Below, piece after piece: positions 8,648 to 49,759 of a stretch of DNA of 64,000 nucleotides. Positions within the stretch are counted from its first letter, which is position 1. Each line of letters begins with the position of its first letter. Below the pieces are notes generated by a model. It was not told the DNA's origin and made no database searches. It worked only from the letters and a program-made list of their open reading frames with translations. Both the position numbers and the translations under genes were made by a program. The stretch is taken from the NCBI RefSeq assembly GCF_002951835.1, contig NZ_CP019448.1, positions 2,401,382 through 2,465,381 of the forward strand. Reading direction: 5' to 3'. The stretch is from Simonsiella muelleri ATCC 29453 (GTDB lineage: Bacteria > Pseudomonadota > Gammaproteobacteria > Burkholderiales > Neisseriaceae).

Positions 8648-9040
8648 ATGAACATCAGTCAAGCCGCACAACAAACAGGTTTATCCACCAAACAAATTCG
8701 TGATTATGAAAAACAAGGTTTGTTGCCACATGCTAAACGCACACCGAGCGGTTATCGTGATTATGCGCCAACCGACTTACAACGTTTGCATTTTATTCGC
8801 CATGCGCGAGATATGGGTTTTTCGTTGATGCAAATTGGGCAATTATTGGCGTTGCAAGATAATCCGACGCGGCAAAGCCGTGATGTGAAAGATTTGACTG
8901 CGCTGCATATCGCTGAATTAGATAAGAAAATTGCATCGCTGCAAGCTATGCGACATACGTTGCAAATATGGCATGACCAATGCACTGGCGATGAGCAACC
9001 AAATTGCTGTATTTTGGCGGGTTTGGTAGGGAAAGAATAG
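8648..9040 (+). CDS. cueR: MerR-family regulator, CueR-like (Cu(I)-responsive)
   Basis: N-terminal MerR HTH. C-terminal C-x7-C (CTGDEQPNC) at the CueR metal-site spacing. The stop codon TAG is the first 3 nt of a MITE terminal repeat. Confidence 0.6.
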   Translation: MNISQAAQQTGLSTKQIRDYEKQGLLPHAKRTPSGYRDYAPTDLQRLHFIRHARDMGFSLMQIGQLLALQDNPTRQSRDVKDLTALHIAELDKKIASLQAMRHTLQIWHDQCTGDEQPNCCILAGLVGKE

Positions 9041-9182
9041 AACCTGTTGTATTCACCGCCAAGCGTGATGTCTTTTTGCACCATTTGGTACGCCTGTAGG
9101 AATGCTATTAGCATAAAATTCGCCTGACATTCGTACCAACTGGGACAAAAATCTATTTTATGTTGGCTATGAATACAGGTTG
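9038..9182. mobile_element. MITE copy A (TAGAACCTGT... terminal inverted repeats; about 145 bp)
   Basis: Left end TAGAACCTGTTGTATTCACCGCCAAGCGTGATG, right end ...CGTTGGCTATGAATACAGGTTG. The core (CATTCG.ACCAACTGGGACAAAAATC) is shared with copies B, C and D. Confidence 0.75.
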
Positions 9183-9364
9183 AAACCTCTGCAAAACTAT
9201 CCGTCGTCATTATCGCGTAAGTGGTAATCCATTTTCAATCTTAAATGAATTTTCAATAAGTCAAATAAATCAATTATCTAAATTTTACTATTAGATTCCC
9301 GCATTAGCGAGAATGACGAGATTTGGGTTAGTTTTTGGATTTTGCAAAGGTTTCAGGTTCTAAA

Positions 9365-9415
9365 AAGGCAGCCTGAAAATAAATGAAATATTTTCAGGCT
9401 GCCTTATATTGTAAA
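9365..9415. terminator. Inverted DUS pair between the convergent cueR and fumarase genes
   Basis: AGGCAGCCTGAAAATAAATGAAATATTTTCAGGCTGCCTTA. Confidence 0.5.
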
Positions 9416-9423
9416 ATAATCAA

Positions 9424-10944
9424 TTATTCTACAGGAATAATGCCAATTTTCGCTTGCCACTGTTTGGGTGCAACCGCATGAACCGATTGACCTTTAGAAT
9501 CTACTGCAACGGTTACGGGCATATCTTTAACTTCGAACTCATAAATCGCTTCCATTCCCAATTCGGGGAACGCCAACACTTTGGCTTCTTTAATCGCTTT
9601 GGCAACGAGATACGCCGCGCCGCCTGTTGCCATCAAATACACCGCACCATTGTCAGCAATGGCTTCGCAGGCAGCCGCGCCACGTTCGGATTTGCCAATC
9701 ATGCCAAGCAACCCTGTTTGTTCCAACATTTGGCGCGTGAATTTGTCCATTCGTGTTGCCGTAGTTGGACCAGCTGGCCCAACAATTTCATCGCGAACAG
9801 GATCCACAGGACCAACGTAATAAATCATTTTATTTGTAAAATCAACAGGTAATTTTTCACCGTTGTTGAGCATATCCACCATGCGTTTGTGTGCTGCATC
9901 GCGACCTGTCAAGATTTTACCGTTAAGCAACAACACATCACCCATTTTCCATTGTTTGACATCTTCTTTGGTCAGATTGTCCAAATCTACGCGAATACCA
10001 TTGTCGGGACTATAAGTAATGTCGGGCCAATCTTCCAAACTGGGTGGATCTAATTTGACCGCGCCTGTCCCATCTAATACAAATTCAACATGGCGAGTGG
10101 CAGCGCAATTTGGAATCATGGCAATGGGTTTTGATGCAGCGTGGGTTGGGTAATCCAAAATTTTCACGTCTAATACAGTCGTCAGACCACCCAAACCTTG
10201 TGCACCAATCCCCAAAGCGTTGACTTTTTCATACAATTCCAAGCGCAATTTTTCTACCGTATTCAATTCCGCGCCCGATGCGGCTTTTTCTTGCAATTTT
10301 TGAATATCAATATGGCTCATTAAACTTTCTTTTGCCATCAATGCTGCTTTTTCGGGTGTACCACCAATACCAATGCCCAAAATGCCTGGTGGACACCAGC
10401 CTGCACCCATGGTTGGTACGGTTTTCAGCACCCAATCTACGATGCTATCAGATGGATTTAACATTGCCATTTTGGATTTGTTTTCTGAACCACCACCTTT
10501 TGCTGCGCAAGTTACTTCCAATTTGTCGCCTGCCACCACTTCCATGTGAACGATGGCTGGCGTGTTATCTTTGGTATTGGTGCGCTTGCCTGCTGGGTCA
10601 GCTAAAACTGATGCGCGTAACACATTATCGGGGTGAGTGTAAGCGCGGCGTACACCTTCATTGACCATGTCTTGTACCGACATTTGCGCGTCCCATTGCA
10701 CATTCATACCAATTTTCAGGAACACGGTGGCGATACCTGTATCTTGGCAAATTGGGCGGTGTCCTTCGGCACACATACGGCTATTGACTAAAATTTGTGT
10801 CATCGCATCTTTGGCGGCTGGATTTTGTTCTTTTTCCAATGCCTTAGTCAGAGCATGAATGTAATCTTTCGGATGATAATAGCTGATGAATTGGAACGCA
10901 TCGGCAATACTTTGGATAAAGTCTTCTTGTTTGATGATGGTCAT
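9424..10944 (-). CDS. fumA: Fumarate hydratase, class I (Fe-S)
   Basis: 506 aa. Full-length similarity to FumA/FumB-type fumarases (N-terminal alpha region plus C-terminal beta region with the GGAAYLVAKAIKE motif). Confidence 0.88.
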   Translation of the reverse strand: MTIIKQEDFIQSIADAFQFISYYHPKDYIHALTKALEKEQNPAAKDAMTQILVNSRMCAEGHRPICQDTGIATVFLKIGMNVQWDAQMSVQDMVNEGVRRAYTHPDNVLRASVLADPAGKRTNTKDNTPAIVHMEVVAGDKLEVTCAAKGGGSENKSKMAMLNPSDSIVDWVLKTVPTMGAGWCPPGILGIGIGGTPEKAALMAKESLMSHIDIQKLQEKAASGAELNTVEKLRLELYEKVNALGIGAQGLGGLTTVLDVKILDYPTHAASKPIAMIPNCAATRHVEFVLDGTGAVKLDPPSLEDWPDITYSPDNGIRVDLDNLTKEDVKQWKMGDVLLLNGKILTGRDAAHKRMVDMLNNGEKLPVDFTNKMIYYVGPVDPVRDEIVGPAGPTTATRMDKFTRQMLEQTGLLGMIGKSERGAAACEAIADNGAVYLMATGGAAYLVAKAIKEAKVLAFPELGMEAIYEFEVKDMPVTVAVDSKGQSVHAVAPKQWQAKIGIIPVE

Positions 10945-10993
10945 GGTTGTGTCCTTTGGGTTAACAGTGTAGAGATTTTATGGTAGTAGAATT

Positions 10994-11161
10994 AGAACCT
11001 GTGTTCACAGCCAAACGTGATGTCTTTTTGCCCCATTTAGCACGTCTGCTGTGTTGAATTTCATGCCAATAGGAAGAACGCTATTGGCGCGAAATTCGCC
11101 TAGCATTCGCCCCAACTGGGACAAAAATCCATTTCACGTTGGCTATGAATACAGGTTCTTA
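10994..11161. mobile_element. MITE copy B (about 168 bp), in the same orientation as copy A. Copies A and B bracket the fumarase gene.
   Basis: TAGAACCTGTGTTCACAGCCAAACGTGATG ... CGTTGGCTATGAATACAGGTTCTTA. Confidence 0.75.
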
Positions 11162-13054: not shown

Positions 13055-13576
13055 ATGAAAACTATGCAAAAAGGTTTCACATTAATCGAGTTGATGATTG
13101 TAATCGCTATTATCGGTATTTTGGCTGCTATCGCATTGCCTGCTTACCAAGACTACACTGTTCGCTCAAAAATTTCTGAGGCTTTGATTGCTTCTTCTTC
13201 TGCTAAAGGCATGGTATCTGAAGCATTCCAATCTGATAGTTTGTCTGGTGTAGCAACTGCTGCTACTGCTTATAATGCCAAACCTAAGTCTGAAAAATCT
13301 TCTAAATATGTTGATGATATCGTGGTTAATGCAGCTGATGGTGCAATCACTGTAACGTTGTCTAAAGCTAGCAACGTAGGTTTCCCAGCTGAAGTTAAAG
13401 GTAAAACTATTGTCTTCACTCCATATGTGAAAAAAGCTAAGTTGGCTGAAGGTGCGCAAGGTGCGATTGACTGGGCTTGTGCTTCTAATGCAAACGGTAC
13501 TGCAACTGCTCGTGGTTTAACATCACCAACTGCTGGTACTTTGCCATCTAAATACGCTCCTTCTGAGTGTCGTTAA
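13055..13576 (+). CDS. pilA1: Type IVa major pilin (prepilin)
   Basis: Class III leader MKTMQKG|[27 protein letters not shown] and a C-terminal disulfide loop (C...C). 173 aa. Confidence 0.9.
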
Positions 13577-13684: not shown

Positions 13685-13824
13685 TAAGAACCTGTTTTCA
13701 TCATCTTAATAGCTTGCTTTTATCGCCACTTCATGCGCCTACTGCATTGGCTTGAAAAGTTGCCTAGTATTCGCAAAAATTGTTAATAAAATCAAGTTAT
13801 CAATCTTACGAACACAGGTTCTAA
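13685..13824. mobile_element. MITE copy E. It has the same TAAGAACCTGT / ACAGGTTCTA terminal repeats but a different core (a second subfamily). It lies between pilA1 and pilA2 and ends 11 bp upstream of the pilA2 ribosome-binding site.
   Basis: TAAGAACCTGTTTTCATCATCTTAATAGCTTGC ... TTACGAACACAGGTTCTAAAGGAAATCTAGATG. Confidence 0.7.
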
Positions 13825-13835
13825 AGGAAATCTAG

Positions 13836-14357
13836 ATGAAAAACAATATGCAAAAGGGCTTCACTCTCATTGAATTGATGATTGTGATTGCTATTATTGG
13901 GATTTTGGCGGCAATTGCATTGCCAGCATATCAAGATTATACTGTTCGCGCGAAGATATCTGAAGCGTTGTTGGCGGTATCATCTGTCAAAACTTTTATT
14001 GCAGAAGCCTTTGAAACCGATGGGTACACAGGTGTAACCAGTGCTGCCGCCGCGTATAATAAGTCTAAACCCAAATCCGAAAAAATTAGTAAATATGTTG
14101 AAGACATTCAAATTGATGAAATAACAGGTGCAATTTCTGTTTACATCAAGAATGATAAAAGTTTGCCTAAAGAAGCACAAAATGCAACCCTTGTTTTGAC
14201 TCCACACGTGTTGGGTAACGCCTTATCTGAAAAAGTGCATGGCGCGATCGATTGGGCTTGTAGCAGCACAGGTACGGGTACAGCAAACGCTCGTTTGTTG
14301 AGAGCCGCTCAACCAGGTACATTACCTGCTAAATACGCACCGTCTGAATGTCGCTAA
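13836..14357 (+). CDS. pilA2: Type IVa pilin, second tandem copy
   Basis: It shares the N-terminal 40 aa with pilA1. The variable domain differs. The C-terminus (AKYAPSECR) is conserved. 173 aa. Confidence 0.88.
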
Positions 14358-14374
14358 TAAATTGAATTCACGCA

Positions 14375-14418
14375 AAAAGGCAGCCTGAAAACCATTGTTC
14401 GGTTTTCAGGCTGCCTTG
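14375..14418. terminator. Inverted DUS pair downstream of pilA2, facing the convergent edd gene
   Basis: AGGCAGCCTGAAAACCATTGTTCGGTTTTCAGGCTGCCTTGC. Confidence 0.55.
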
Positions 14419-16271: not shown

Positions 16272-17128
16272 TAGGGGCTAATGACAATTCAAAAAAAGAG
16301 GCAAAGGATTTAAGATATTGTTTCCACGCAACCATCCCAAACCTTTGCCATGTCCCGAAACACGCTTACAAATGAAACATGGTCAAGACTGTTGCCTATT
16401 TTGAAACAGCTTGGCATTTATCGCAAGAAAAATTTACGCAAAACAGTAGAAGGTATCCTATTTCGCTTACGTACAGGCTGCCAATGGGCTGATATACCTA
16501 GTTATTTTGGTAAAGCAAACAGCCTTTACCAAAGTTTCAATCGCTGGTCTAAACGCGGTATTTTTACCCGATTATTCAAACATTTGGTAGATACACCCGA
16601 TATGGAATGGGTCTTTATGGACGGTAGCCATATCCGCGTTCATCAACACGGTATGGGTAAACAATCCATTACGCATCAAGCTGTTGGTAAGAGTATCGGT
16701 GGTCATACGTCTAAAATTCATTTAGCGGTTGATGCTTGTGGTAATCCAATTGAATTTATCATTACAGCTGGTAATGTAAATGATATTGTTGTTGCGCCTG
16801 ATTTATTGGCACAATTGGATTTAAGTGATAATGAAACCGTGTGTGCTGATAGGGGTTTTGACAGTGATACTTTTCGTCGGTTAATTCAGTCTAAACAAAG
16901 TAAAGCCAATATTCCATATAAGAAAAATAGAGAACATCTTAATGTGGGCACAGATTGGTATTTATATAAAATCAGGCACTTGGTAGAAAACGCTTTTGCG
17001 CGATTAAAGCATTTTCGTGCGCTGGCAACACGGTACGATAAATTAAAACGTAATTATGAAAGTACTGTATCATTAGCTTGTGCTTTGATTTGGTTGAAAT
17101 TATAGCTAAAATGTCATTAGCCCCTAAT
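16272..17128. mobile_element. IS5-family insertion sequence (about 857 bp) with roughly 14 bp terminal inverted repeats GGGGCTAATGACA(A/T)TT
   Basis: The left end is GGGGCTAATGACAATT and the right end is AAATGTCATTAGCCCC. The flanks are TAG / TAA, consistent with a TNA target duplication. Confidence 0.75.
16350..17105 (+). CDS. IS5-family (IS427/IS1031-like) DDE transposase
   Basis: 251 aa. N-terminal motif LLPILK..G.KKN.R....GI.FRLRTGCQWADIP and a DDE core. Confidence 0.85.
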   Translation: MSRNTLTNETWSRLLPILKQLGIYRKKNLRKTVEGILFRLRTGCQWADIPSYFGKANSLYQSFNRWSKRGIFTRLFKHLVDTPDMEWVFMDGSHIRVHQHGMGKQSITHQAVGKSIGGHTSKIHLAVDACGNPIEFIITAGNVNDIVVAPDLLAQLDLSDNETVCADRGFDSDTFRRLIQSKQSKANIPYKKNREHLNVGTDWYLYKIRHLVENAFARLKHFRALATRYDKLKRNYESTVSLACALIWLKL

Positions 17129-17316: not shown

Positions 17317-17367
17317 TAGAACTTGTGTTCATAATCTTAATCGCTTGACTTCTAGAACACAGGTTAT
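17317..17367. mobile_element. MITE copy F. This is an internally deleted 51 bp copy of the E subfamily, and it overlaps the 3' end of ribF.
   Basis: TAGAACTTGTGTTCATAATCTTAATCGCTTGACTTCTAGAACACAGGTTAT. Confidence 0.55.
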
Positions 17368-17372
17368 TAATT

Positions 17373-18296
17373 TTAAAAGACTATATTTGCCAACCATGTT
17401 TGTGCATCGAGCATGTCTTGTTGAATTTGTTGTTGCAGAGTGGTTAAATCTGCGAATTTTTCTTCATCACGCAATTTATGTAGGAATTGCACGTCAATTC
17501 GTTCGCCGTATAAATTTCCAGAATAATCAAATAAATGAACTTCTAGTTTAGGAGTCAATGTATTGGACACAGTTGGATTCACACCAAAACTCGCCACGCC
17601 ATGGTATTTGCCAAACGCAGTCAATACGCGCACCACAAACACGCCACGTAACGCGTAGGAATGTTTCGGTAAATGCACGTTGGCGGTGGGACAACCGATG
17701 GTTCGCCCCAATTTGGCACCGTGTTTCACATGACCACTTAAGGTGTAGGCGTGTCCTAAAATTTGCGTGGCGGTGCGCAAATCGCCTGCCGCAAGAGCTT
17801 GGCGTACGGCGGTGCTGCTGGCACGGCAGCCTGAAACCAAAACGCTGGGCGTATTCTGTGTTTCAAATTGTGAATACGATTGCAACAATTCAAAATCGCC
17901 ACCGCGTGCCTTGCCAAAACGAAAATCATCACCGACCAATAAATAACGCGTATTTAAATGACCCAACAAAATGTGTTGAATAAAATCGTGAGCAGTTTTA
18001 TTGGCAAAATTTGGAGTAAATCTTTGTACCCAAACAGTTTTCAGGCAGCCTGATTGCTGTAGCAATTGAATTTTGTCGCGTAAAGGCGTGAGCCGATAGG
18101 GCGGAGATTGTTGGGCGAAAAATTCTGTGGGTTGCGGTTCAAAGATGATGGCGGTGGTGGCGAGTTGGCGTTGTTCGGCTTGTTGCTTAAGAGTTTGTAA
18201 AATATGGAGATGACCTGTGTGTACGCCGTCAAAATTGCCAATCGTTACTGCGCTGCCTTGTGGTACAAATGGGTGTGTTCCGAAAATAATATTCAT
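17373..18296 (-). CDS. ribF: Bifunctional riboflavin kinase / FAD synthetase
   Basis: N-terminal motif VTIGNFDGVHTGH, 307 aa. The coding sequence contains DUS copies. Confidence 0.9.
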   Translation of the reverse strand: MNIIFGTHPFVPQGSAVTIGNFDGVHTGHLHILQTLKQQAEQRQLATTAIIFEPQPTEFFAQQSPPYRLTPLRDKIQLLQQSGCLKTVWVQRFTPNFANKTAHDFIQHILLGHLNTRYLLVGDDFRFGKARGGDFELLQSYSQFETQNTPSVLVSGCRASSTAVRQALAAGDLRTATQILGHAYTLSGHVKHGAKLGRTIGCPTANVHLPKHSYALRGVFVVRVLTAFGKYHGVASFGVNPTVSNTLTPKLEVHLFDYSGNLYGERIDVQFLHKLRDEEKFADLTTLQQQIQQDMLDAQTWLANIVF

Positions 18297-21791: not shown

Positions 21792-21958
21792 ATAAAATAA
21801 GTGCGTTTAATTCATCAAAAATTTTGATGGATTAAAGGTGCTTGGTGCTTTTAAGCTGAAACCTTTGCAAAACACCCATATGCAATGCCATCGCTCTGAA
21901 TTGCGCCTAAATTTAGGGCGGAAAAAGGGTTGTTTACTCATATTCCGCACAACCTAAA

Positions 21959-32892: not shown

Positions 32893-34443
32893 TTATTTTT
32901 TATCTTTGATTTCCGTCCGAATAATCACTTCACGCGGTTCAATGGTCTGCCAAGGTTCGGGCACGGCTGCAAACACTTCACGGCGCACAATGGGTGGGCG
33001 TGCTGCAATTTCAGCTAACGCTTCAGCTTCGGCTTTTGCTTTGGCTTCTTGTTCGGCTTTTACTTTTGCTTTTGCTTCTGTAGCTGCTTTTGCTTTAGCA
33101 GCAGCATCTGCTTTTAATTTGGCTTCCGCATCGGCACGCGCTTTGGCGATGGCTTCTTCTTTTGCTTTTGCTTCTGCCAGAACTTTAGCCTCCTGTTCAG
33201 CTTTAGCTTTAGCGGCAGCGGCTTCTTGTTCAGCTTTTAATTTTTCTGCTTGAGCTTTAGCTTCCTGTTCGGCTTTAGCTTTAGCGGCAGCGGCTTCTTG
33301 TTCAGCTTTTAATTTTTCTGCTTGAGCTTTAGCTTCCTGTTCGGCTTTAGCTTTAGCGGCGGCGGCTTCTTGTTCAGCTTTTAATTTTTCTGCTTGAGCT
33401 TTGGCTTCTTGTTCAGCTTTTGCTTTAGCGGCGGCAGCATCTTGTTCCGCTTTTAATTTTGCCATTTCGGCTTCGGCTGCAGCTTTGGCACGTTCCACTT
33501 CCAAACGTGCTTGTTCGGCTTGGGCTTTTAATTGTGCAATCTCTGCATCGGCTTGTGCTTTGGCTTGTGCTACTGCTTGACGTGCTTGCTCATTTTCAGC
33601 TTTTAATTTTTCGGTTTCGGCTTTCAATCGTGCTTCTTCTTCAGATACTTGCGTCAACTCAAATTGTGTTGTTGTGCTGGCTGCGGTAGGTGTAGATTCA
33701 GCATGTTGCGCTTGGACATCGGCTTTTAAGCGTGATTCAGCTAACGATTTATTGGTAGAAATACCATTGTTTTCATCATCGGGCACATCGGATTTTTCTA
33801 ATGGCAAATACGCCAAAATGGTTTCACTGGCGCGAATTTTATCGCCAATTGCCACGTTTGCTGTTGCGTCTAATGGTAAATATACATCAATGCGTGAACC
33901 AAAACGAATGAAACCATAGCGTTCGCCACGCAAAATACTGTCGCCTTTATTGGTGTAACACAAAATGCGACGCGCAACCAACCCTGCTACTTGTACCACA
34001 GTTAATTCACGCCCTGTGCGTGTGGTCATTAATACCGCGTTGCGTTCGTTTTCGTTGCTGGATTTGTCTAAAGACGCGTTTACGAATTTGCCTGCGGTGT
34101 ACTGTACTTCTGTTACACTGCCTGAAATAGGTGAGCGTTGTGAATGTACATTGAATATATTCATGAAAATACTGATTTTCAATGCACTGGTTTGACGATA
34201 TGGGTCAATCGCGCGTTCTACCACCACAACTCGTCCGTCTGCGGGTGATAAAATTGCATCGGGTGCTTCGGGAATATTTCGTGCTGGGTCGCGGAAAAAA
34301 TTCACGCAAAACAAGGTAAACGCCCAAAACGGTAGCGACCACCAACCACATAAACAAGTAAACAAAACACTCAACACCAGTCCGCCAATAATAAACAGCC
34401 AGCCTTCTTGGGCAATAATGGTATGTGGATAATAACGGTTCAT
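32893..34443 (-). CDS. psd: Phosphatidylserine decarboxylase-family proenzyme (short type) fused to a roughly 300 aa Ala/Glu/Lys-rich coiled-coil repeat tail
   Basis: The N-terminal roughly 215 aa carry the FGSR autocleavage motif ([18 protein letters not shown]). The C-terminus has four 24-aa repeats ([24 protein letters not shown]), which correspond to 72 bp tandem repeats at about 33180-33470. Confidence 0.7.
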
Positions 34444-36580: not shown

Positions 36581-36792
36581 TTCGTTTTTTATACAAGAAA
36601 AACACCTCAAGAATTTTGGGGTGTTTTTCTATTTTATGGATTGGAGATAAAAAAATTGTGATTTCAATTCATCCTATTTGAATGAATTTCAATTGTAAAA
36701 TGATAAATAAAAAATAGGGGGCGGATATAAAATCCACCGCCCAATTTAGATAGGTTTGGCAAAGGTTTCAGCCTAAAAATCACTTTATTGAT

Positions 36793-39700
36793 TTAGAAGA
36801 AAATGCCATTATTGTAACGTTTAGGATTTATGCTGTAATTGGAAATTTCAGGCACAGGCAAACCTTCGTCTGTTGCTGCATCAGCGTGAGTCGGTGGCGA
36901 AGATAATGTAGCAGAACTATTAACAACAATTTGTTCTGGTTCATCTTTTTCAGCTGGCTCAATTCTGTCGTTGATGGCATCAATATTTTCAGCTTGTTCC
37001 GTTTGTAATGTATGTTTACGGAACACGGACGCAAATGAATTTTCACCAATTGTTTTGGGCGCAAATGGTGATTTTTTGGGTGTAGGCGTTTCAACAGGTT
37101 TTACCACTTCGCTGCTAACCGATGATACGGTATTCGTTTTTTCAATTGTTTGAGTTGGTGGAGTGTTTTCCGCTACTTGAGTTGTCTGAATTTTCGGTTT
37201 AACTGGAGAGGACTCAATTTCCACTCTAGGCGTAATTTCCCCTGTTGGTACGTTCGTGCTGCCTGAATTTTGTCCTGATTGAGCATTTACATTTGGTGTG
37301 TTTTTGGGTGCTACGACCACTTCAATAGTGGCTTTTTGTGGCACGGCTTGTACCGTAATTGTAGGTTTTTTGGGTTCTATCGTGTGAACCACTGGTACTA
37401 CAGAAATTTGTGGTTTTGTTTCTGCAACAGGTTGGTTGGCAATCTGAACGGATTCTACAGAAATTTCTGGTTTTGTTTCTGCAACAGGTTGGTTGGCAAT
37501 CTGAACGGATTCTATAGAAATTTGTGGTTTTGTTTCTGCAATAGGTTGGTTGGTAATCTGAACAGATTCTACTTCTATAGAGATTTCTGGCTTTGTTTCT
37601 ACAATAGGCTGGTTGGTAATCTGAACCGATTCTATTTCTACAGAGATTTCTGGTTTTGTTTCTACAATAGGCTGGTTGGTAATCTGAACCGATTCTATTT
37701 CTACAGAGATTTCTGGTTTTGTTTCTGCAACAGGTTGGTTAGCAATCTGAACAGACTCTATTTCTACAGAAATTTCTGGTTTTGTTTCTGCAACAGGTTG
37801 TGCAGGTTTGGTCAATTTGTCGGCTGGCAAACCTGCCATGCTTGCCTGTGTTAGATATTTTGCCAATGAACTGGTTTGTGGTGCAGAAGGTGCTTTGGGT
37901 GGCTCGGGCGCAATCGCTGGTGCAACAGGTCTTTTGTTTATGCTTACTGAAATATTTTTATTTTCAGTGGATTGGATTGTGGGCGTAGTCTTTTCCACAA
38001 CGGGTGTTGCGGCTGCCGATTGGGTCTCATCGGGTATGTATTTGGCGAAAATATTTGGTTTTTGGTTATTCGTTAAAATGGTGGATTTGGGTAATACCAT
38101 TTGCACGGGCGCGACGTGTAATTCTTCCTCTTCAATGACATGGCACACAGCTGCATTTGCAGGCTGCGTATTTTCAGATGATGTGGTGGGGGCTGCGGTT
38201 TGGGTAGGTTGTTGGGGTTCTGCATCATCTGGAGCTTCGGCGCGTGATACGGCAACGATTGTGCTGTCAGACGCATTGGCTAGTGCATCATTTTGCATTG
38301 CTTCAAATTCAGGTCGCTGCTTTTTGCCAAACAGCGAACAAAGCCAGCCAAAAAGTCCACCTTTAGACTTTCGTGGTGCAGATGAATTGGGTGCATTTGT
38401 ATTCATGTTATCAGACTCATTTGGCAAAGGTTGATTGGTTTCAATAATTTGTTCAGCATTTTTTTCAGGCTGCCTGAAAGATTCGGTGCTGGATTCGGTT
38501 ATGGTTTGTGGTGGTGTTGGTTCGGAGGCAATGGGTTTGCTTTCGGGCGACACAAGCGAAACAGGGGTATCGGTTGATTTAACCAATTTCGCATCTGTTT
38601 TCATGCCAACCAATGCGCTTGGTGGTGCGATAATTGGATTATTTGTCAAATTTTCGGGTGTGGCAACCGATTCATTGGTTTGGGTTGTGTCGGTTTGTGG
38701 TGTTTGTTCGCTGGATTTGGGTAACTCGGATTCAGTGATACTGGGTTGCGATGCAACATCATCAAATTCTTCGCCGATTACTTCGGGTTTGGGTAAATGC
38801 AAACCTGCTTCGGTCAGCACGGCATAAGCGGCTAATTCGTCTGTGTTTCGGCGTAGGTATTGGTGTAATTGCAAAAAATGCATTTCCAATTCTGCTGCAC
38901 GCGCAGGATGGTAATACCAATCCAGTACGGCATTTGCCAATTTTTCTGGTGTGGCATCTTTTTGCAGCAATTCAGGTACAACTTCTCTACCCAATAAAAT
39001 ATTGGGTAAACCCACATATTGAATTTTAATTTTGCGCTTGACTAATGCATAAGTCAAAGACGAAATACGGTAACTAATCACCATCGGACGTTTGCACAAA
39101 GCCACTTCCAATGAAGCAGTCCCACTGGTTACCAATACAACATCAGCTGCTATACACGCCAATTCGGTTTTGGCAGCCTGAAGACGAATGGGTAAATAAC
39201 GAAATTCTTCTTGTTGTAAATATTCTTGCAAACACTCGCGTACACCAGCTGAAGGGTAGGGCATCAAGAAGACAGCTTCAGGTAAGGCTTTGACAATTAA
39301 AGCGGCAGCACGTAAGAAAACCGGTGCCATATATTCCACTTCACTCACACGGCTACCGGGGAGCAATGTGAACACGGGTGCAGTCAAATTTAATTTCAAA
39401 CGTTCGCGCACGGCTTCGCGACTATTTTCCAGTGGCAGCATTTGTGCCAAAGGGTGTCCAACGTATTCTGCTTTGCCACCAGCATCACGATACAATTTGG
39501 GTTCCATTGGGAACAAACACAAAACCTGATTTACTTGACGCACGATTTTATGTACTCGCTCGGGTTTCCATGCCCACACCGAAGGGCTAACATAATGTAA
39601 AGTAGGAATGCCTGCGGCTTTTAATTTGGCAGCGACTGTTAAATTAAAATCGGGCGAGTCAATGCCAACAAAAACATGTGGGCTGATTTTGCGTAAATCT

Positions 39701-43941: not shown

Positions 43942-44107
43942 TTTTCAGGCTGCCTGAAAGAACCACGCATCTCGTAAAACAATCAGCGCAATCATTTTCA
44001 GGCTGCCTGAAAAAGCGTACAATCGACACAATTATTTTTTTGAAAACAACAAGGCAGCCTGAAACCCTTTTCAGGCTGCCTGAACAATTAATGAAAGCAA
44101 AACACAC

Positions 44108-45999: not shown

Positions 46000-46032
46000 T
46001 AGAACCTATGTTCATTACGAACACAGGTTCTA
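46000..46032. mobile_element. MITE copy G: a 33 bp hairpin made of the two terminal repeats alone, sitting where the mnmG terminator would be
   Basis: TAGAACCTATGTTCATTACGAACACAGGTTCTA. Confidence 0.55.
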
Positions 46033-47345: not shown

Positions 47346-47666
47346 GGAATCACTCCAAATATTTTTGTAATCGGAAGTAGTTATCATATATCCGCTTAAT
47401 CGTATTTGGCAAATGATATTTATTGATGAATATGAATCAGTTATTTCTTAGGCAGTATGATTGTATGAAACCTTTGTAAAACAGTAAAATAACAGAACGC
47501 GGGTAACTCATTCGCGTTTTCAGGCATTAGAAAAGCGCATCGTGAAAAAATGCGCCCAAGATGGAGCAAAGGTTTCAGGCTGCCTGAAATTAGAACCCCC
47601 ATTCACAAAAAAATCAATAAAATCAAGTAAAAAATCTTATGAATACAGGTTCTAAAGCTCTATAAA

Positions 47667-48680: not shown

Positions 48681-48757
48681 TAAGAACCTGTATTCATAAC
48701 CAACGTGAAATGATTTTTGTCCCAGTTGGTGCGAATGACTGTGAATACAGGTTCTAA
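48681..48757. mobile_element. MITE copy D (77 bp, internally deleted, in the opposite orientation to copy C)
   Basis: TAAGAACCTGTATTCATAACCAACGTGAAATGATTTTTGTCCCAGTTGGTGCGAATGACTGTGAATACAGGTTCTA. Confidence 0.7.
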
Positions 48758-49474: not shown

Positions 49475-49632
49475 CTAAGAACTTTCATTCACAGCCAAGC
49501 GCGATGCGTTTTTGTACCATTTAGCACGCCTGCTGCGTTGAATTTCACGCCAATAGGAACACTATTAGATGAAATTCGCCTGACATTCGCACCAACTGGG
49601 ACAAAAATCCATTTCACGTTGGCTGTGAATAC
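49475..49632. mobile_element. MITE copy C (about 158 bp). It starts 2 bp after the dolP-like stop codon.
   Basis: CTAAGAACTTTCATTCACAGCCAAGCGCGATG ... CGTTGGCTGTGAATACAGGTTCTAAG. Confidence 0.75.
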
Positions 49633-49759
49633 AGGTTCTAAGGTTTTGACATATTTCAGGCAGTCTCAACTTTCAGGCTGCCTGAAAAATGATGGTGATT
49701 TTACAATATTTGTTATTTGATCTCTGGCGGTTTTCAGGCTGCCTGAAACGGAACACACT

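What the first reader, a model, noticed from the sequence alone, without database searches (positions are those of the whole stretch)
9038..11161. New MITE family with TAGAACCTGT(R)TTCACAGCCAA terminal inverted repeats, with at least 8 copies or remnants in 64 kb
Full copies (145-168 bp) are at 9038-9182, 10994-11161 and 49475-49632. They share the terminal repeats and a conserved core (CATTCGCACCAACTGGGACAAAAATCCATTTCACGTTGGCTGTGAATACAGGTTC). An internally deleted, inverted copy is at 48681-48757. A second subfamily has the same terminal repeats but a different core, at 13685-13824 and 17317-17367. Hairpins made of the terminal repeats alone are at 46000-46032 and 47636-47658.

The placements matter. 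Two copies in direct orientation bracket the fumarase gene. An inverted pair brackets the dolP-like gene. The element at 9038 supplies the TAG stop codon of cueR (GAA-TAG-AACCTG). The copy at 46000 sits exactly where the mnmG terminator would be.

Functionally this is analogous to Neisseria Correia elements, but the sequence is unrelated.
Basis: seen in the sequence. Interest (0 to 1): 0.65.

Follow-up and report, generated by a model that had tools for sequence, protein, structure and literature searches.

The report
Widespread hairpin MITE in Simonsiella muelleri
The repeats are real miniature transposons (about 160 bp or shorter remnants) that insert at T-A/T-A, share their ends with an IS5-type insertion sequence, and belong to an apparently undescribed family found from oral Neisseriaceae to gut Clostridia and streptococci.

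Summary
The window is Simonsiella muelleri CP083930.1 and carries exactly eight copies or remnants of one inverted-repeat element.

It is a genuine MITE. The element proper is GAACCTGTATTCA...TGAATACAGGTTC. The preceding "TA/TTA" is not part of the repeat; it is a 3-bp target-site duplication, TTA or TAA. The flanks are identical in 76 of 90 elements.

An 840-bp IS5-family insertion sequence (DUF4096 + DDE_Tnp_1) with the same ends exists in Ruminococcaceae, and fragments of it in Streptococcus. None is in the window.

The family is not specific to this genome. Elements of about 160 bp occur in Alysiella, Neisseria perflava, Kingella kingae, Psychrobacter, Faucicola, Streptococcus, many Oscillospiraceae and some viral contigs.

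Across these taxa the whole element is kept as one long hairpin by compensatory changes (34 of 45 pairs). G:U wobbles outnumber A.C mismatches 209:55 on one defined strand. I cannot explain this polarity.

In S. muelleri the copies look old and fixed. They differ from each other by about 14% and are shared by all 8-9 strains examined.

They have been co-opted passively:
- one completes the cueR stop codon;
- five lie 0-14 nt after stop codons.

I found no Rfam family and no literature description.

Verdict: a new member of a known kind (an IS5/Harbinger-type "Tourist-like" bacterial MITE), with an unusual conserved fold.

The parts
9040..9181 (-). Full-length subfamily-1 copy (142 bp plus the last C at 9354). 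The left terminus carries a 3-bp insertion (GAACCTGTTGTATTCA). The right terminus is interrupted by the nested element. Flanks are ATA / TAA. Its first base completes the cueR stop codon TAG (9038-9040).
   Evidence: (47.3 bits on the - strand vs 26.1 on +)
9182..9353 (.). Nested insertion of a second inverted-repeat family (GAAACCTCTGCAAAA...TTTTGCAAAGGTTTC) inside the right terminus of the 9040 copy. AGGTT is duplicated at the junctions. The insertion is absent from metagenomic strain L007.
10995..11158 (-). Full-length subfamily-1 copy (164 bp), TSD TTA/TTA. It lies 50 nt upstream of the fumarase start codon (10944, - strand) and 75 nt downstream of the AmpD-like gene.
   Evidence: (98.2 bits - vs 48.1 +)
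13688..13821 (-). Subfamily-2 copy (134 bp, internal deletion of about 28 bp), TSD TAA/TAA. Its interior matches the Alysiella crassa copy (L023). It lies between two tandem pilin genes, 14 nt upstream of the second ATG (13836).
   Evidence: (64.6 bits)
17319..17366 (-). 48-bp remnant of subfamily 2 with both termini (degenerate), TSD TTA/TTA. It lies 6 nt after the ribF stop codon (ribF on the - strand, 17373-18296).
   Evidence: (20.5 bits)
46002..46030 (-). 29-bp termini-only hairpin, flanks TTA/TAA, 7 nt after the mnmG stop codon (45994). Terminator-like.
   Evidence: (30.6 bits)
47593..47652 (-). 60-bp remnant with both termini and an AT-rich core, flanks TTA/TAA. It lies 14 nt after the stop codon of the ABC-permease gene (- strand, 47667) and abuts a DNA-uptake sequence.
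   Evidence: (31.3 bits)
48684..48754 (+). 71-bp internally deleted subfamily-1 copy in the opposite orientation, TSD TAA/TAA, 109 nt upstream of the BON/DolP-like gene (48864).
   Evidence: I5, I9; 46.5 bits
49479..49638 (-). Full-length subfamily-1 copy (160 bp). The left terminus is degenerate (GAACTTTCATTCA). TSD TAA/TAA. It lies 6 nt after the BON/DolP-like stop codon (49472).
   Evidence: (92.5 bits - vs 33.4 +)

Best explanation
These are copies and decayed remnants of a non-autonomous DNA transposon (MITE). An IS5-family DDE transposase (DUF4096 + DDE_Tnp_1; the short, roughly 840-bp IS427/IS1031/ISL2-like type) mobilises it in trans.

The transposase recognises the 13-19-bp termini GAACCTGTATTCA(C/T)A. 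It inserts at a T-(A/T)-A trinucleotide and duplicates it. The canonical element is about 160 bp and is one long imperfect hairpin from end to end.

In Simonsiella muelleri the family looks like an old, now probably dormant invasion. There are two subfamilies, many internal deletions and degenerate termini, and the copies are fixed in all strains examined.

AT-rich TWA sites cluster around stop codons and intergenic spacers. Copies therefore ended up at gene ends, where they are passively co-opted:
- one completes the cueR stop codon;
- several form strong hairpins right after stop codons, where they probably act as terminators or 3'-end stabilisers;
- one sits in the fumarase leader;
- one sits just upstream of a pilin gene.

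Shown: repeat family, termini, TSD, a partner IS elsewhere, cross-phylum distribution, and a hairpin conserved by covariation.

Inferred: trans-mobilisation, dormancy, and the terminator/regulatory effects.
For: Repeat family:
- Eight copies in the window, far above chance.

Target-site duplication:
- 76 of 90 short elements from the window and 120 other loci have identical flanking trinucleotides (TTA/TTA 40, TAA/TAA 36).
- Only 7 show the TTA...TAA arrangement expected if the flanks were part of the inverted repeat.
- 5 of the 8 window copies have identical TWA flanks.

Partner IS:
- L013 5834-6673 is an 840-bp IS with identical termini. It encodes DUF4096 and a DDE_Tnp_1 segment and matches NCBIfam transpos_IS5_3.
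- A second copy is in L044.
- Truncated copies are in Streptococcus (L056, L092, L098), Faucicola (L062) and viral contigs (L210, L211).

Size and fold:
- Element size is sharply peaked at 160-164 bp.
- In the whole-length hairpin, 92.8% of cells are paired, against 33-43% in slid controls.
- 34 of 45 pairs show double-sided changes.

Copies elsewhere:
- A copy at a different locus sits in a DUS-rich, 38%-GC metagenome contig with a TTA/TTA duplication (L142).

Fixation in S. muelleri:
- The copies are shared by all strains.

Target preference in the same host:
- The window's own strain-specific IS5-family IS also duplicates a TNA trinucleotide (CTA).
Against: - No autonomous partner with these termini is in the window or in any Neisseriaceae DNA I hold. 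The window's IS5-family IS has different ends (GGGGCTAATGACA), and its N-terminus is only 29% identical to the partner type.
- I found no filled-versus-empty site for this family. Neighbouring genera are not syntenic at the fumarase locus.
- Three window copies lack identical flanks.
- The partner IS shares only about 16-19 bp with the MITE. The MITE interior is therefore not a simple deletion derivative of that IS.
- Interior sequence similarity between the Simonsiella and Firmicutes copies is weak. It reaches E of about 0.002 only when Psychrobacter copies are in the profile.
- The terminator and promoter roles rest on consensus scans that are not enriched over shuffles.
Confidence: 0.87

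Rival explanations
1. The element is primarily a mobile structured nucleic acid. One defined strand, as RNA or ssDNA, must fold into the 160-nt hairpin to perform a function of its own. Possible functions include a cis-acting RNA processing/stability module, a small RNA, or a single-stranded transposition or replication intermediate. The IS5-type termini would only provide mobility. This reading does not exclude the MITE reading.
For: - 69 of 71 full-length elements fold more stably in one orientation (mean -81.2 vs -62.9 kcal/mol).
- On the model alignment, G:U cells outnumber A.C cells 209:55. GU exceeds AC in each of five taxon groups, at varying positions.
- 34 of 45 pairs covary.
- Length and a few unpaired motifs (CAAGG opposite ACGCAG) are conserved across phyla while the rest of the interior diverges.
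Against: - Orientation relative to co-directional flanking ORFs is unbiased (16:13).
- There is no conserved sigma-70 promoter or intrinsic terminator inside the element (and inspection).
- There is no Rfam family.
- The alignment cells are not phylogenetically independent, and the alignment was fitted to the model.
- A strand-specific mutational bias could mimic wobble tolerance.
Confidence: 0.25
2. The repeats are not mobile. They are host-evolved palindromes such as REP-like terminator hairpins or operator sites (each terminus contains GAAC-N4-GTTC), multiplied by local duplication or convergent selection.
For: - Many copies sit right after stop codons.
- The 46002 copy is terminator-like.
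- Each terminus is itself a GAAC-N4-GTTC palindrome (sequence).
Against: - The direct TWA duplication is statistically clear.
- The same termini bound an 840-bp transposase-encoding IS.
- The same element occurs in unrelated phyla and in viral contigs.
- Copies occur in both orientations and also upstream of genes.
Confidence: 0.03
3. The two direct copies flanking the fumarase gene form a composite transposon that moved fumarase into this locus.
For: - The copies at 9040 and 10995 have the same orientation and bracket the gene.
- Fumarase has a different neighbourhood in Kingella kingae, Wielerella bovis and an unnamed relative.
Against: - The outer flanks differ (ATA vs TTA).
- The two copies are about 15% diverged.
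- Synteny among these genera is poor in general, so the different neighbourhoods say little.
- No second copy of the unit was seen.
Confidence: 0.03

Closest known systems
MITEs derived from IS5-family insertion sequences (IS427/IS1031/ISL2-type groups), and their eukaryotic counterparts, Tourist MITEs of the PIF/Harbinger superfamily
   Same: - Short non-coding element with terminal inverted repeats identical to those of a DUF4096/DDE_Tnp_1 IS.
- 3-bp TTA/TAA target duplication.
- From my own knowledge, this is the hallmark of PIF/Harbinger-Tourist elements and of TNA-duplicating IS5 subgroups. PMC12730594 places IS5-family groups with Harbinger, which makes 3-bp TSDs.
   Different: - The interior is not a deletion derivative of the IS I found.
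- The element keeps a constant length of about 160 bp and a covarying whole-length hairpin across phyla, with strand-specific wobble.
- I could not query ISfinder to name the partner. IS1381 of Streptococcus is a candidate from memory only.
Correia repeat-enclosed elements (CREE/NEMIS) of Neisseria
   Same: - Small (about 100-160 bp) inverted-repeat elements.
- Abundant in intergenic regions of a Neisseriaceae genome, often at gene ends.
- Able to form long hairpins in transcripts.
- Full-length and internally deleted forms coexist.
   Different: - The termini are unrelated: there is no Correia terminus in the window.
- The duplication is TWA rather than TA.
- An IS partner is identifiable here, whereas from my own knowledge none is established for Correia.
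- Distribution is cross-phylum rather than restricted to Neisseria.
- An IHF site, promoters and RNase III processing are documented for Correia but were not tested here.
ERIC/IRU, RUP and other whole-length-palindrome bacterial repeats
   Same: - Imperfect palindromes of 100-170 bp located in or next to transcribed regions.
- Size variants arise by internal deletion or insertion.
- Effects on mRNA are orientation-dependent in the published cases (my own knowledge).
   Different: - Those families are each confined to one bacterial group.
- This one has IS5-type termini and a TWA duplication.
- It spans Neisseriaceae, Moraxellaceae, Streptococcus and Clostridia.

Membership tests
MITE (non-autonomous DDE-transposon derivative) | Terminal inverted repeats | tested here: met
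   GAACCTGTATTCA / TGAATACAGGTTC is found at both ends of all 8 window copies and about 90 elements elsewhere.
MITE (non-autonomous DDE-transposon derivative) | Direct target-site duplication of fixed length | tested here: met
   3 bp. 76 of 90 elements have identical flanks, TTA/TTA 40 and TAA/TAA 36. 5 of 8 window copies do.
MITE (non-autonomous DDE-transposon derivative) | Small, no coding capacity, multi-copy | tested here: met
   Elements are 29-164 bp. There are 8 in 64 kb. Further copies lie at other loci (L142, L167) and in other genomes.
MITE (non-autonomous DDE-transposon derivative) | Autonomous element with the same termini | tested here: met
   An 840-bp IS in Ruminococcaceae bacterium D5 (L013, L044) has the same termini, and fragments occur in Streptococcus and Faucicola.
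MITE (non-autonomous DDE-transposon derivative) | Presence/absence polymorphism (filled vs empty sites) | tested here: inconclusive
   All 8-9 S. muelleri strains carry the copies. L007 differs only by an internal deletion. Related genera are not syntenic.
IS5 family (short TNA-duplicating groups) | DDE_Tnp_1 transposase with DUF4096 N-terminal domain bounded by these termini | tested here: met
   Pfam DUF4096 matches at 8e-17 and 5e-23, DDE_Tnp_1 matches on fragments, and NCBIfam transpos_IS5_3 matches.
IS5 family (short TNA-duplicating groups) | 2-4 bp / TNA target duplication | tested here: met
   TWA for the MITE. The L013 IS has TGA/TAA flanks, which are not identical.
Correia element (CREE/NEMIS) | 26-bp Correia terminal repeat (TATAGTGGATTAACAAAAATCAGGAC...) | tested here: not met
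   0 matches at 3 mismatches or fewer in the window. The termini here are unrelated.
Correia element (CREE/NEMIS) | TA dinucleotide duplication | tested here: not met
   The duplication is the trinucleotide TTA or TAA.
Correia element (CREE/NEMIS) | IHF binding, internal promoters, RNase III processing | not testable with these tools
   No conserved sigma-70 promoter was seen. Biochemistry is required.
Any curated structured RNA family (Rfam 15) | Match at gathering threshold | tested here: not met
   Only tRNAs, 6S RNA and riboswitches hit. Nothing overlaps the elements in the window or in 16 loci from five taxon groups.

The most novel reading that the evidence does not exclude
The roughly 160-bp element is more than junk DNA riding on an IS5-type transposase. 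It would be an ancient, horizontally spreading module whose single-stranded form (RNA or ssDNA of one specific strand) is under selection in bacteria as distant as Neisseriaceae, Moraxellaceae, Streptococcus and Oscillospiraceae. In other words, it would be a mobile structured nucleic acid with a still unknown partner or function. Possibilities include a transposase-recruiting hairpin, an RNase-targeted mRNA module or a regulatory RNA. The conserved CAAGG/ACGCAG internal loop would be the recognition site.
Probability: 0.25. Interest if true: 0.75.

Novelty: new member of a known kind. Interest (0 to 1): 0.5.

Why it matters
For Simonsiella and the other multicellular oral Neisseriaceae, it identifies the main small repeat shaping intergenic regions. 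The element contributes stop codons, 3'-end hairpins, gene leaders and the spacing of pilin genes. It is also a cause of contig breaks in metagenome assemblies.

More broadly, it defines a bacterial counterpart of plant Tourist MITEs (TTA/TAA duplication, IS5/Harbinger-type transposase) that is shared across phyla. It keeps a fixed length and a covarying, strand-polar hairpin. If that polarity reflects a functional RNA or ssDNA, the family would be a tractable model for how non-autonomous elements persist and spread between very different hosts.

Tried and rejected
1. Rfam at gathering threshold, on the window and on 16 loci: no family covers the element.
2. RNAalifold on the first (+ orientation) alignment gave no structure. 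It worked only in the opposite orientation, which led to the strand-polarity finding.
3. Empty-site search through fumarase orthologues: the K. kingae, Wielerella and unnamed-relative loci are not syntenic and hold no element.
4. Strain polymorphism through fumarase and mnmG look-ups: all copies are fixed. Only the L007 allele differs.
5. Orientation bias relative to flanking genes: none (16:13).
6. Internal promoter or terminator: consensus scans are not enriched. A CTGACA-17-AAAAAT motif recurs in Simonsiella copies but is not conserved in GC-rich relatives.
7. Window IS as the partner: rejected, because its termini differ and its N-terminus is only 29% identical.
8. Naming the partner via plasmid annotation: only the generic label 'IS5 family transposase' came back.
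9. Literature searches by terminus sequence, by IS1381+MITE, by ISL2+MITE and by Simonsiella/Alysiella/Kingella+MITE found no description. The only sequence hit is a K. kingae pilC1 primer that happens to end in the terminus.
10. Metagenome scan with the subfamily-1 core: only 4 of 40 hits were real elements.
11. LexA/Cheo-box-like reading of GAAC-N4-GTTC: considered, then dropped once the duplication and the partner IS were found.
12. A weak model hit at 1849-1882 is an unrelated hairpin.
Full report
**Origin of the window**

The window is 100% identical to NCBI CP083930.1. A preprint uses that record as the Simonsiella muelleri genome (10.64898/2026.07.20.739713). GC content is 40.5%. The window is dense in palindromic DNA-uptake-sequence pairs, TTCAGGCWGCCTGAA, as expected for this branch of the Neisseriaceae.

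**Check of the observation**

- The 14-nt terminus has 15 matches at 2 mismatches or fewer, against 0.95 expected; 13 of them belong to the eight elements.
- The three long copies align end to end.
- A covariance model built later from elements of five taxon groups, run with filters off, finds exactly eight loci in 64 kb.

The eight loci are 9040-9181, 10995-11158, 13688-13821, 17319-17366, 46002-46030, 47593-47652, 48684-48754 and 49479-49638.

- The 47636 'hairpin' is the right end of a 60-bp element with both termini.
- The 9038 copy has its right terminus split by a nested 172-bp insertion of a different inverted-repeat element.
- The third full copy ends at 49638.
- The leading TA/TTA is not part of the repeat.

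**What it is**

The hits were not scattered noise. They clustered in four groups:
- Neisseriaceae: Alysiella crassa, Alysiella and Simonsiella MAGs, Neisseria perflava.
- Moraxellaceae: Psychrobacter, Faucicola, Moraxella.
- Streptococcus: S. ovuberis, S. orisratti, S. rupicaprae, S. plurextorum.
- Above all Oscillospiraceae and other Clostridia, often at contig ends, which indicates multi-copy repeats.

Pairing termini in these loci gives a size distribution sharply peaked at 160-164 bp.

Taking the element as GAACC...GGTTC, the three bases on either side are identical in 76 of 90 elements (TTA/TTA 40, TAA/TAA 36). The palindromic arrangement TTA...TAA occurs only 7 times. One side was fixed by my search pattern. 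The other was free, and it follows the direct-repeat rule rather than the inverted-repeat rule. This is a 3-bp target-site duplication at T-W-A. In the window, 5 of 8 copies show it.

**Autonomous relative**

- In Ruminococcaceae bacterium D5, the same termini bound an 840-bp unit (L013 5834-6673).
- Its reading frames carry DUF4096 (8e-17) and a DDE_Tnp_1 segment, and match NCBIfam transpos_IS5_3 over the N-terminal half. It is therefore frameshifted, or decoded by frameshifting.
- A second copy is in L044.
- Truncated copies or N-terminal stubs directly follow the terminus in S. rupicaprae (L056), other streptococci (L092, L098), Faucicola (L062) and two viral contigs.

From my own knowledge, short IS5-family groups (IS427/IS1031/ISL2) duplicate 2-4 bp, typically TNA. 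The related eukaryotic PIF/Harbinger elements and their Tourist MITEs duplicate TTA/TAA. PMC12730594 places these IS5 groups with Harbinger, which makes 3-bp TSDs. The family is therefore best described as an IS5/Harbinger-type, 'Tourist-like' bacterial MITE.

The partner IS shares only about 16-19 bp with the MITE, so the MITE interior is its own sequence.

No partner lies in the window. The window's IS5-family IS (16274-17123) is a strain-specific insertion that is absent from seven metagenomic strains. Its ends are GGGGCTAATGACA, it duplicates CTA, and its N-terminus is only 29% identical to the partner type.

**Anatomy and conservation**

Every copy folds as one end-to-end hairpin.

Across taxa the interior sequence diverges strongly. 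An interior-only profile built without Neisseriaceae still finds the two best window copies, in the right register, but only at E = 0.002-0.005. A Firmicutes-only interior profile does not find them. Length, fold and a few motifs persist.

On a model-based alignment filtered to 59 full-length elements in their better orientation:
- 92.8% of cells in 45 pairs are standard pairs, against 33-43% when partners are slid by 1-3 columns.
- 34 of 45 pairs show compensatory double changes.

The element also has a polarity:
- 69 of 71 copies fold more stably in one orientation (-81.2 vs -62.9 kcal/mol).
- RNAalifold finds the hairpin only in that orientation.
- G:U cells outnumber A.C cells 209:55.
- GU exceeds AC separately in the Oscillospiraceae, low-GC Clostridia, Streptococcus, Neisseriaceae and Psychrobacter groups, at varying positions.

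This pattern is expected if one specific strand must fold as RNA or ssDNA. Against an RNA role in host transcripts:
- Orientation relative to co-directional neighbours is unbiased (16:13).
- I see no conserved promoter or terminator inside the element.
- No Rfam family matches.

I leave the polarity as unexplained. It underlies the 'novel case'.

**History in S. muelleri**

- Subfamily-1 copies differ from each other by about 14-20%.
- Subfamily 2 (13688, 17319) is closest to the Alysiella and N. perflava copies.
- All copies are present at near-identical loci in 8-9 isolates or metagenomic strains.
- The only variant is L007. There the left half of the 9040 copy is deleted, which gives CueR 132 residues instead of 130, and the nested second element is absent.
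- A metagenome contig with the same DNA-uptake dialect carries a subfamily-1 copy at a locus not in the window, with a TTA/TTA duplication (L142). The copies are therefore not unique to the window.
- A K. kingae pilC1 cloning primer ends in the terminus, which suggests a copy just after pilC1 in that species too.
- Related genera are not syntenic at the fumarase locus, so I could not obtain an empty site.

The picture is an old, probably dormant invasion.

**Consequences for genes** (inference unless stated)

- Shown from sequence: the cueR stop codon is completed by the element's first base. In the L007 allele the stop codon lies inside the element.
- Shown from sequence: five of eight copies lie 0-14 nt after a stop codon (cueR, ribF, mnmG, an ABC permease and the BON/DolP-like gene).
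- The likely reasons are that TWA targets abound around TAA stops and AT-rich spacers, and that insertions inside genes are purged.
- The 29-bp copy after mnmG is a strong hairpin. The scan calls it terminator-like on the minus strand only, so 'where the mnmG terminator would be' is plausible but unproven.
- One copy lies in the likely fumarase leader. A promoter-like site sits just outside it.
- One copy lies 14 nt upstream of the second of two tandem pilin genes.

**Comparison with known systems**

- Correia elements are the closest analogue in lifestyle within the family Neisseriaceae. Membership fails on both testable criteria, the terminal sequence and the TA duplication.
- The element meets the structural criteria of a MITE derived from, or parasitising, an IS5-family IS.
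- I found no description of these termini or of such a MITE in Simonsiella, Alysiella, Kingella, Streptococcus or Clostridia in the searchable literature. I could not consult ISfinder.

**Verdict**

The finding is real and the MITE interpretation is correct. It has one puzzling property, a covarying hairpin with strand-specific wobble.

I rate it a new member of a known kind, of moderate interest.

Noticed in passing
window 9182-9353; 47467-47578; solo ends near 21858-21872 and 36755-36769: A second small inverted-repeat family has termini GAAACCTYTGCAAAA...TTTTGCARAGGTTTC. The 172-bp copy at 9182 is nested in the first MITE's terminus, with AGGTT duplicated at the junctions. It is absent from metagenomic strain L007. 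This is a true presence/absence polymorphism within S. muelleri, so this family may be, or recently was, active.
   Followed up: partly
window 16274-17123: An IS5-family IS (251-aa DUF4096/DDE_Tnp_1 transposase, ends GGGGCTAATGACA, CTA duplicated) is present in CP083930.1 between ilvD and ribF. It is absent from seven metagenomic S. muelleri strains (L001, L002, L004-L008), so it is a recent insertion.
   Followed up: yes
whole window, e.g. 9365-9405, 14377-14417, 43942-44091: More than 32 copies of the DNA-uptake-sequence dialect AGGC(A/T)GCCTGAA occur, mostly as TTCAGGCWGCCTGAA palindromes or inverted pairs just after genes, where they look like terminators. From my own knowledge, this matches the published Kingella/Simonsiella DUS dialects.
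   Followed up: no
window 13055-13576 and 13836-14357: Two tandem type IV pilin genes (173 aa each, DNA about 71% identical over 219 nt) are separated by the 134-bp MITE copy. The element ends 14 nt before the second ATG.
   Followed up: no
L007 8717-8772 (strain allele of window 9039-9353): In one metagenomic strain the left half of the 9040 copy is deleted. CueR then ends 2 residues later (132 aa), at a TGA inside the element.
   Followed up: yes
window 33000-33630 and 37390-37830: There are long in-frame tandem repeats inside coding regions, with periods of 72 nt and 63 nt and up to 96% identity between units. They are presumably repetitive surface or periplasmic proteins on the minus strand.
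   Followed up: no
L183, L186, L191, L197, L182, L212 (full elements); L210, L211 (partner-type transposase): Predicted viral/prophage contigs of IMG/VR carry full-length copies of the MITE and the partner-type IS5 transposase. This is a possible vehicle for its spread between phyla.
   Followed up: partly
PMC9000118, primer pBADpilC1_R: A published Kingella kingae cloning primer for the 3' end of pilC1 ends in ...TTTTTGTGAATACAGGTTCTG. This suggests that an unrecognised copy of the element sits right after pilC1 in K. kingae.
   Followed up: no
window: 7 of 8 copies: Seven of the eight copies have the more foldable strand on the window's minus strand. The overall GC skew of the window is +0.04. 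There are too few copies for a test, but orientation against the replication direction deserves a genome-wide look.
   Followed up: no
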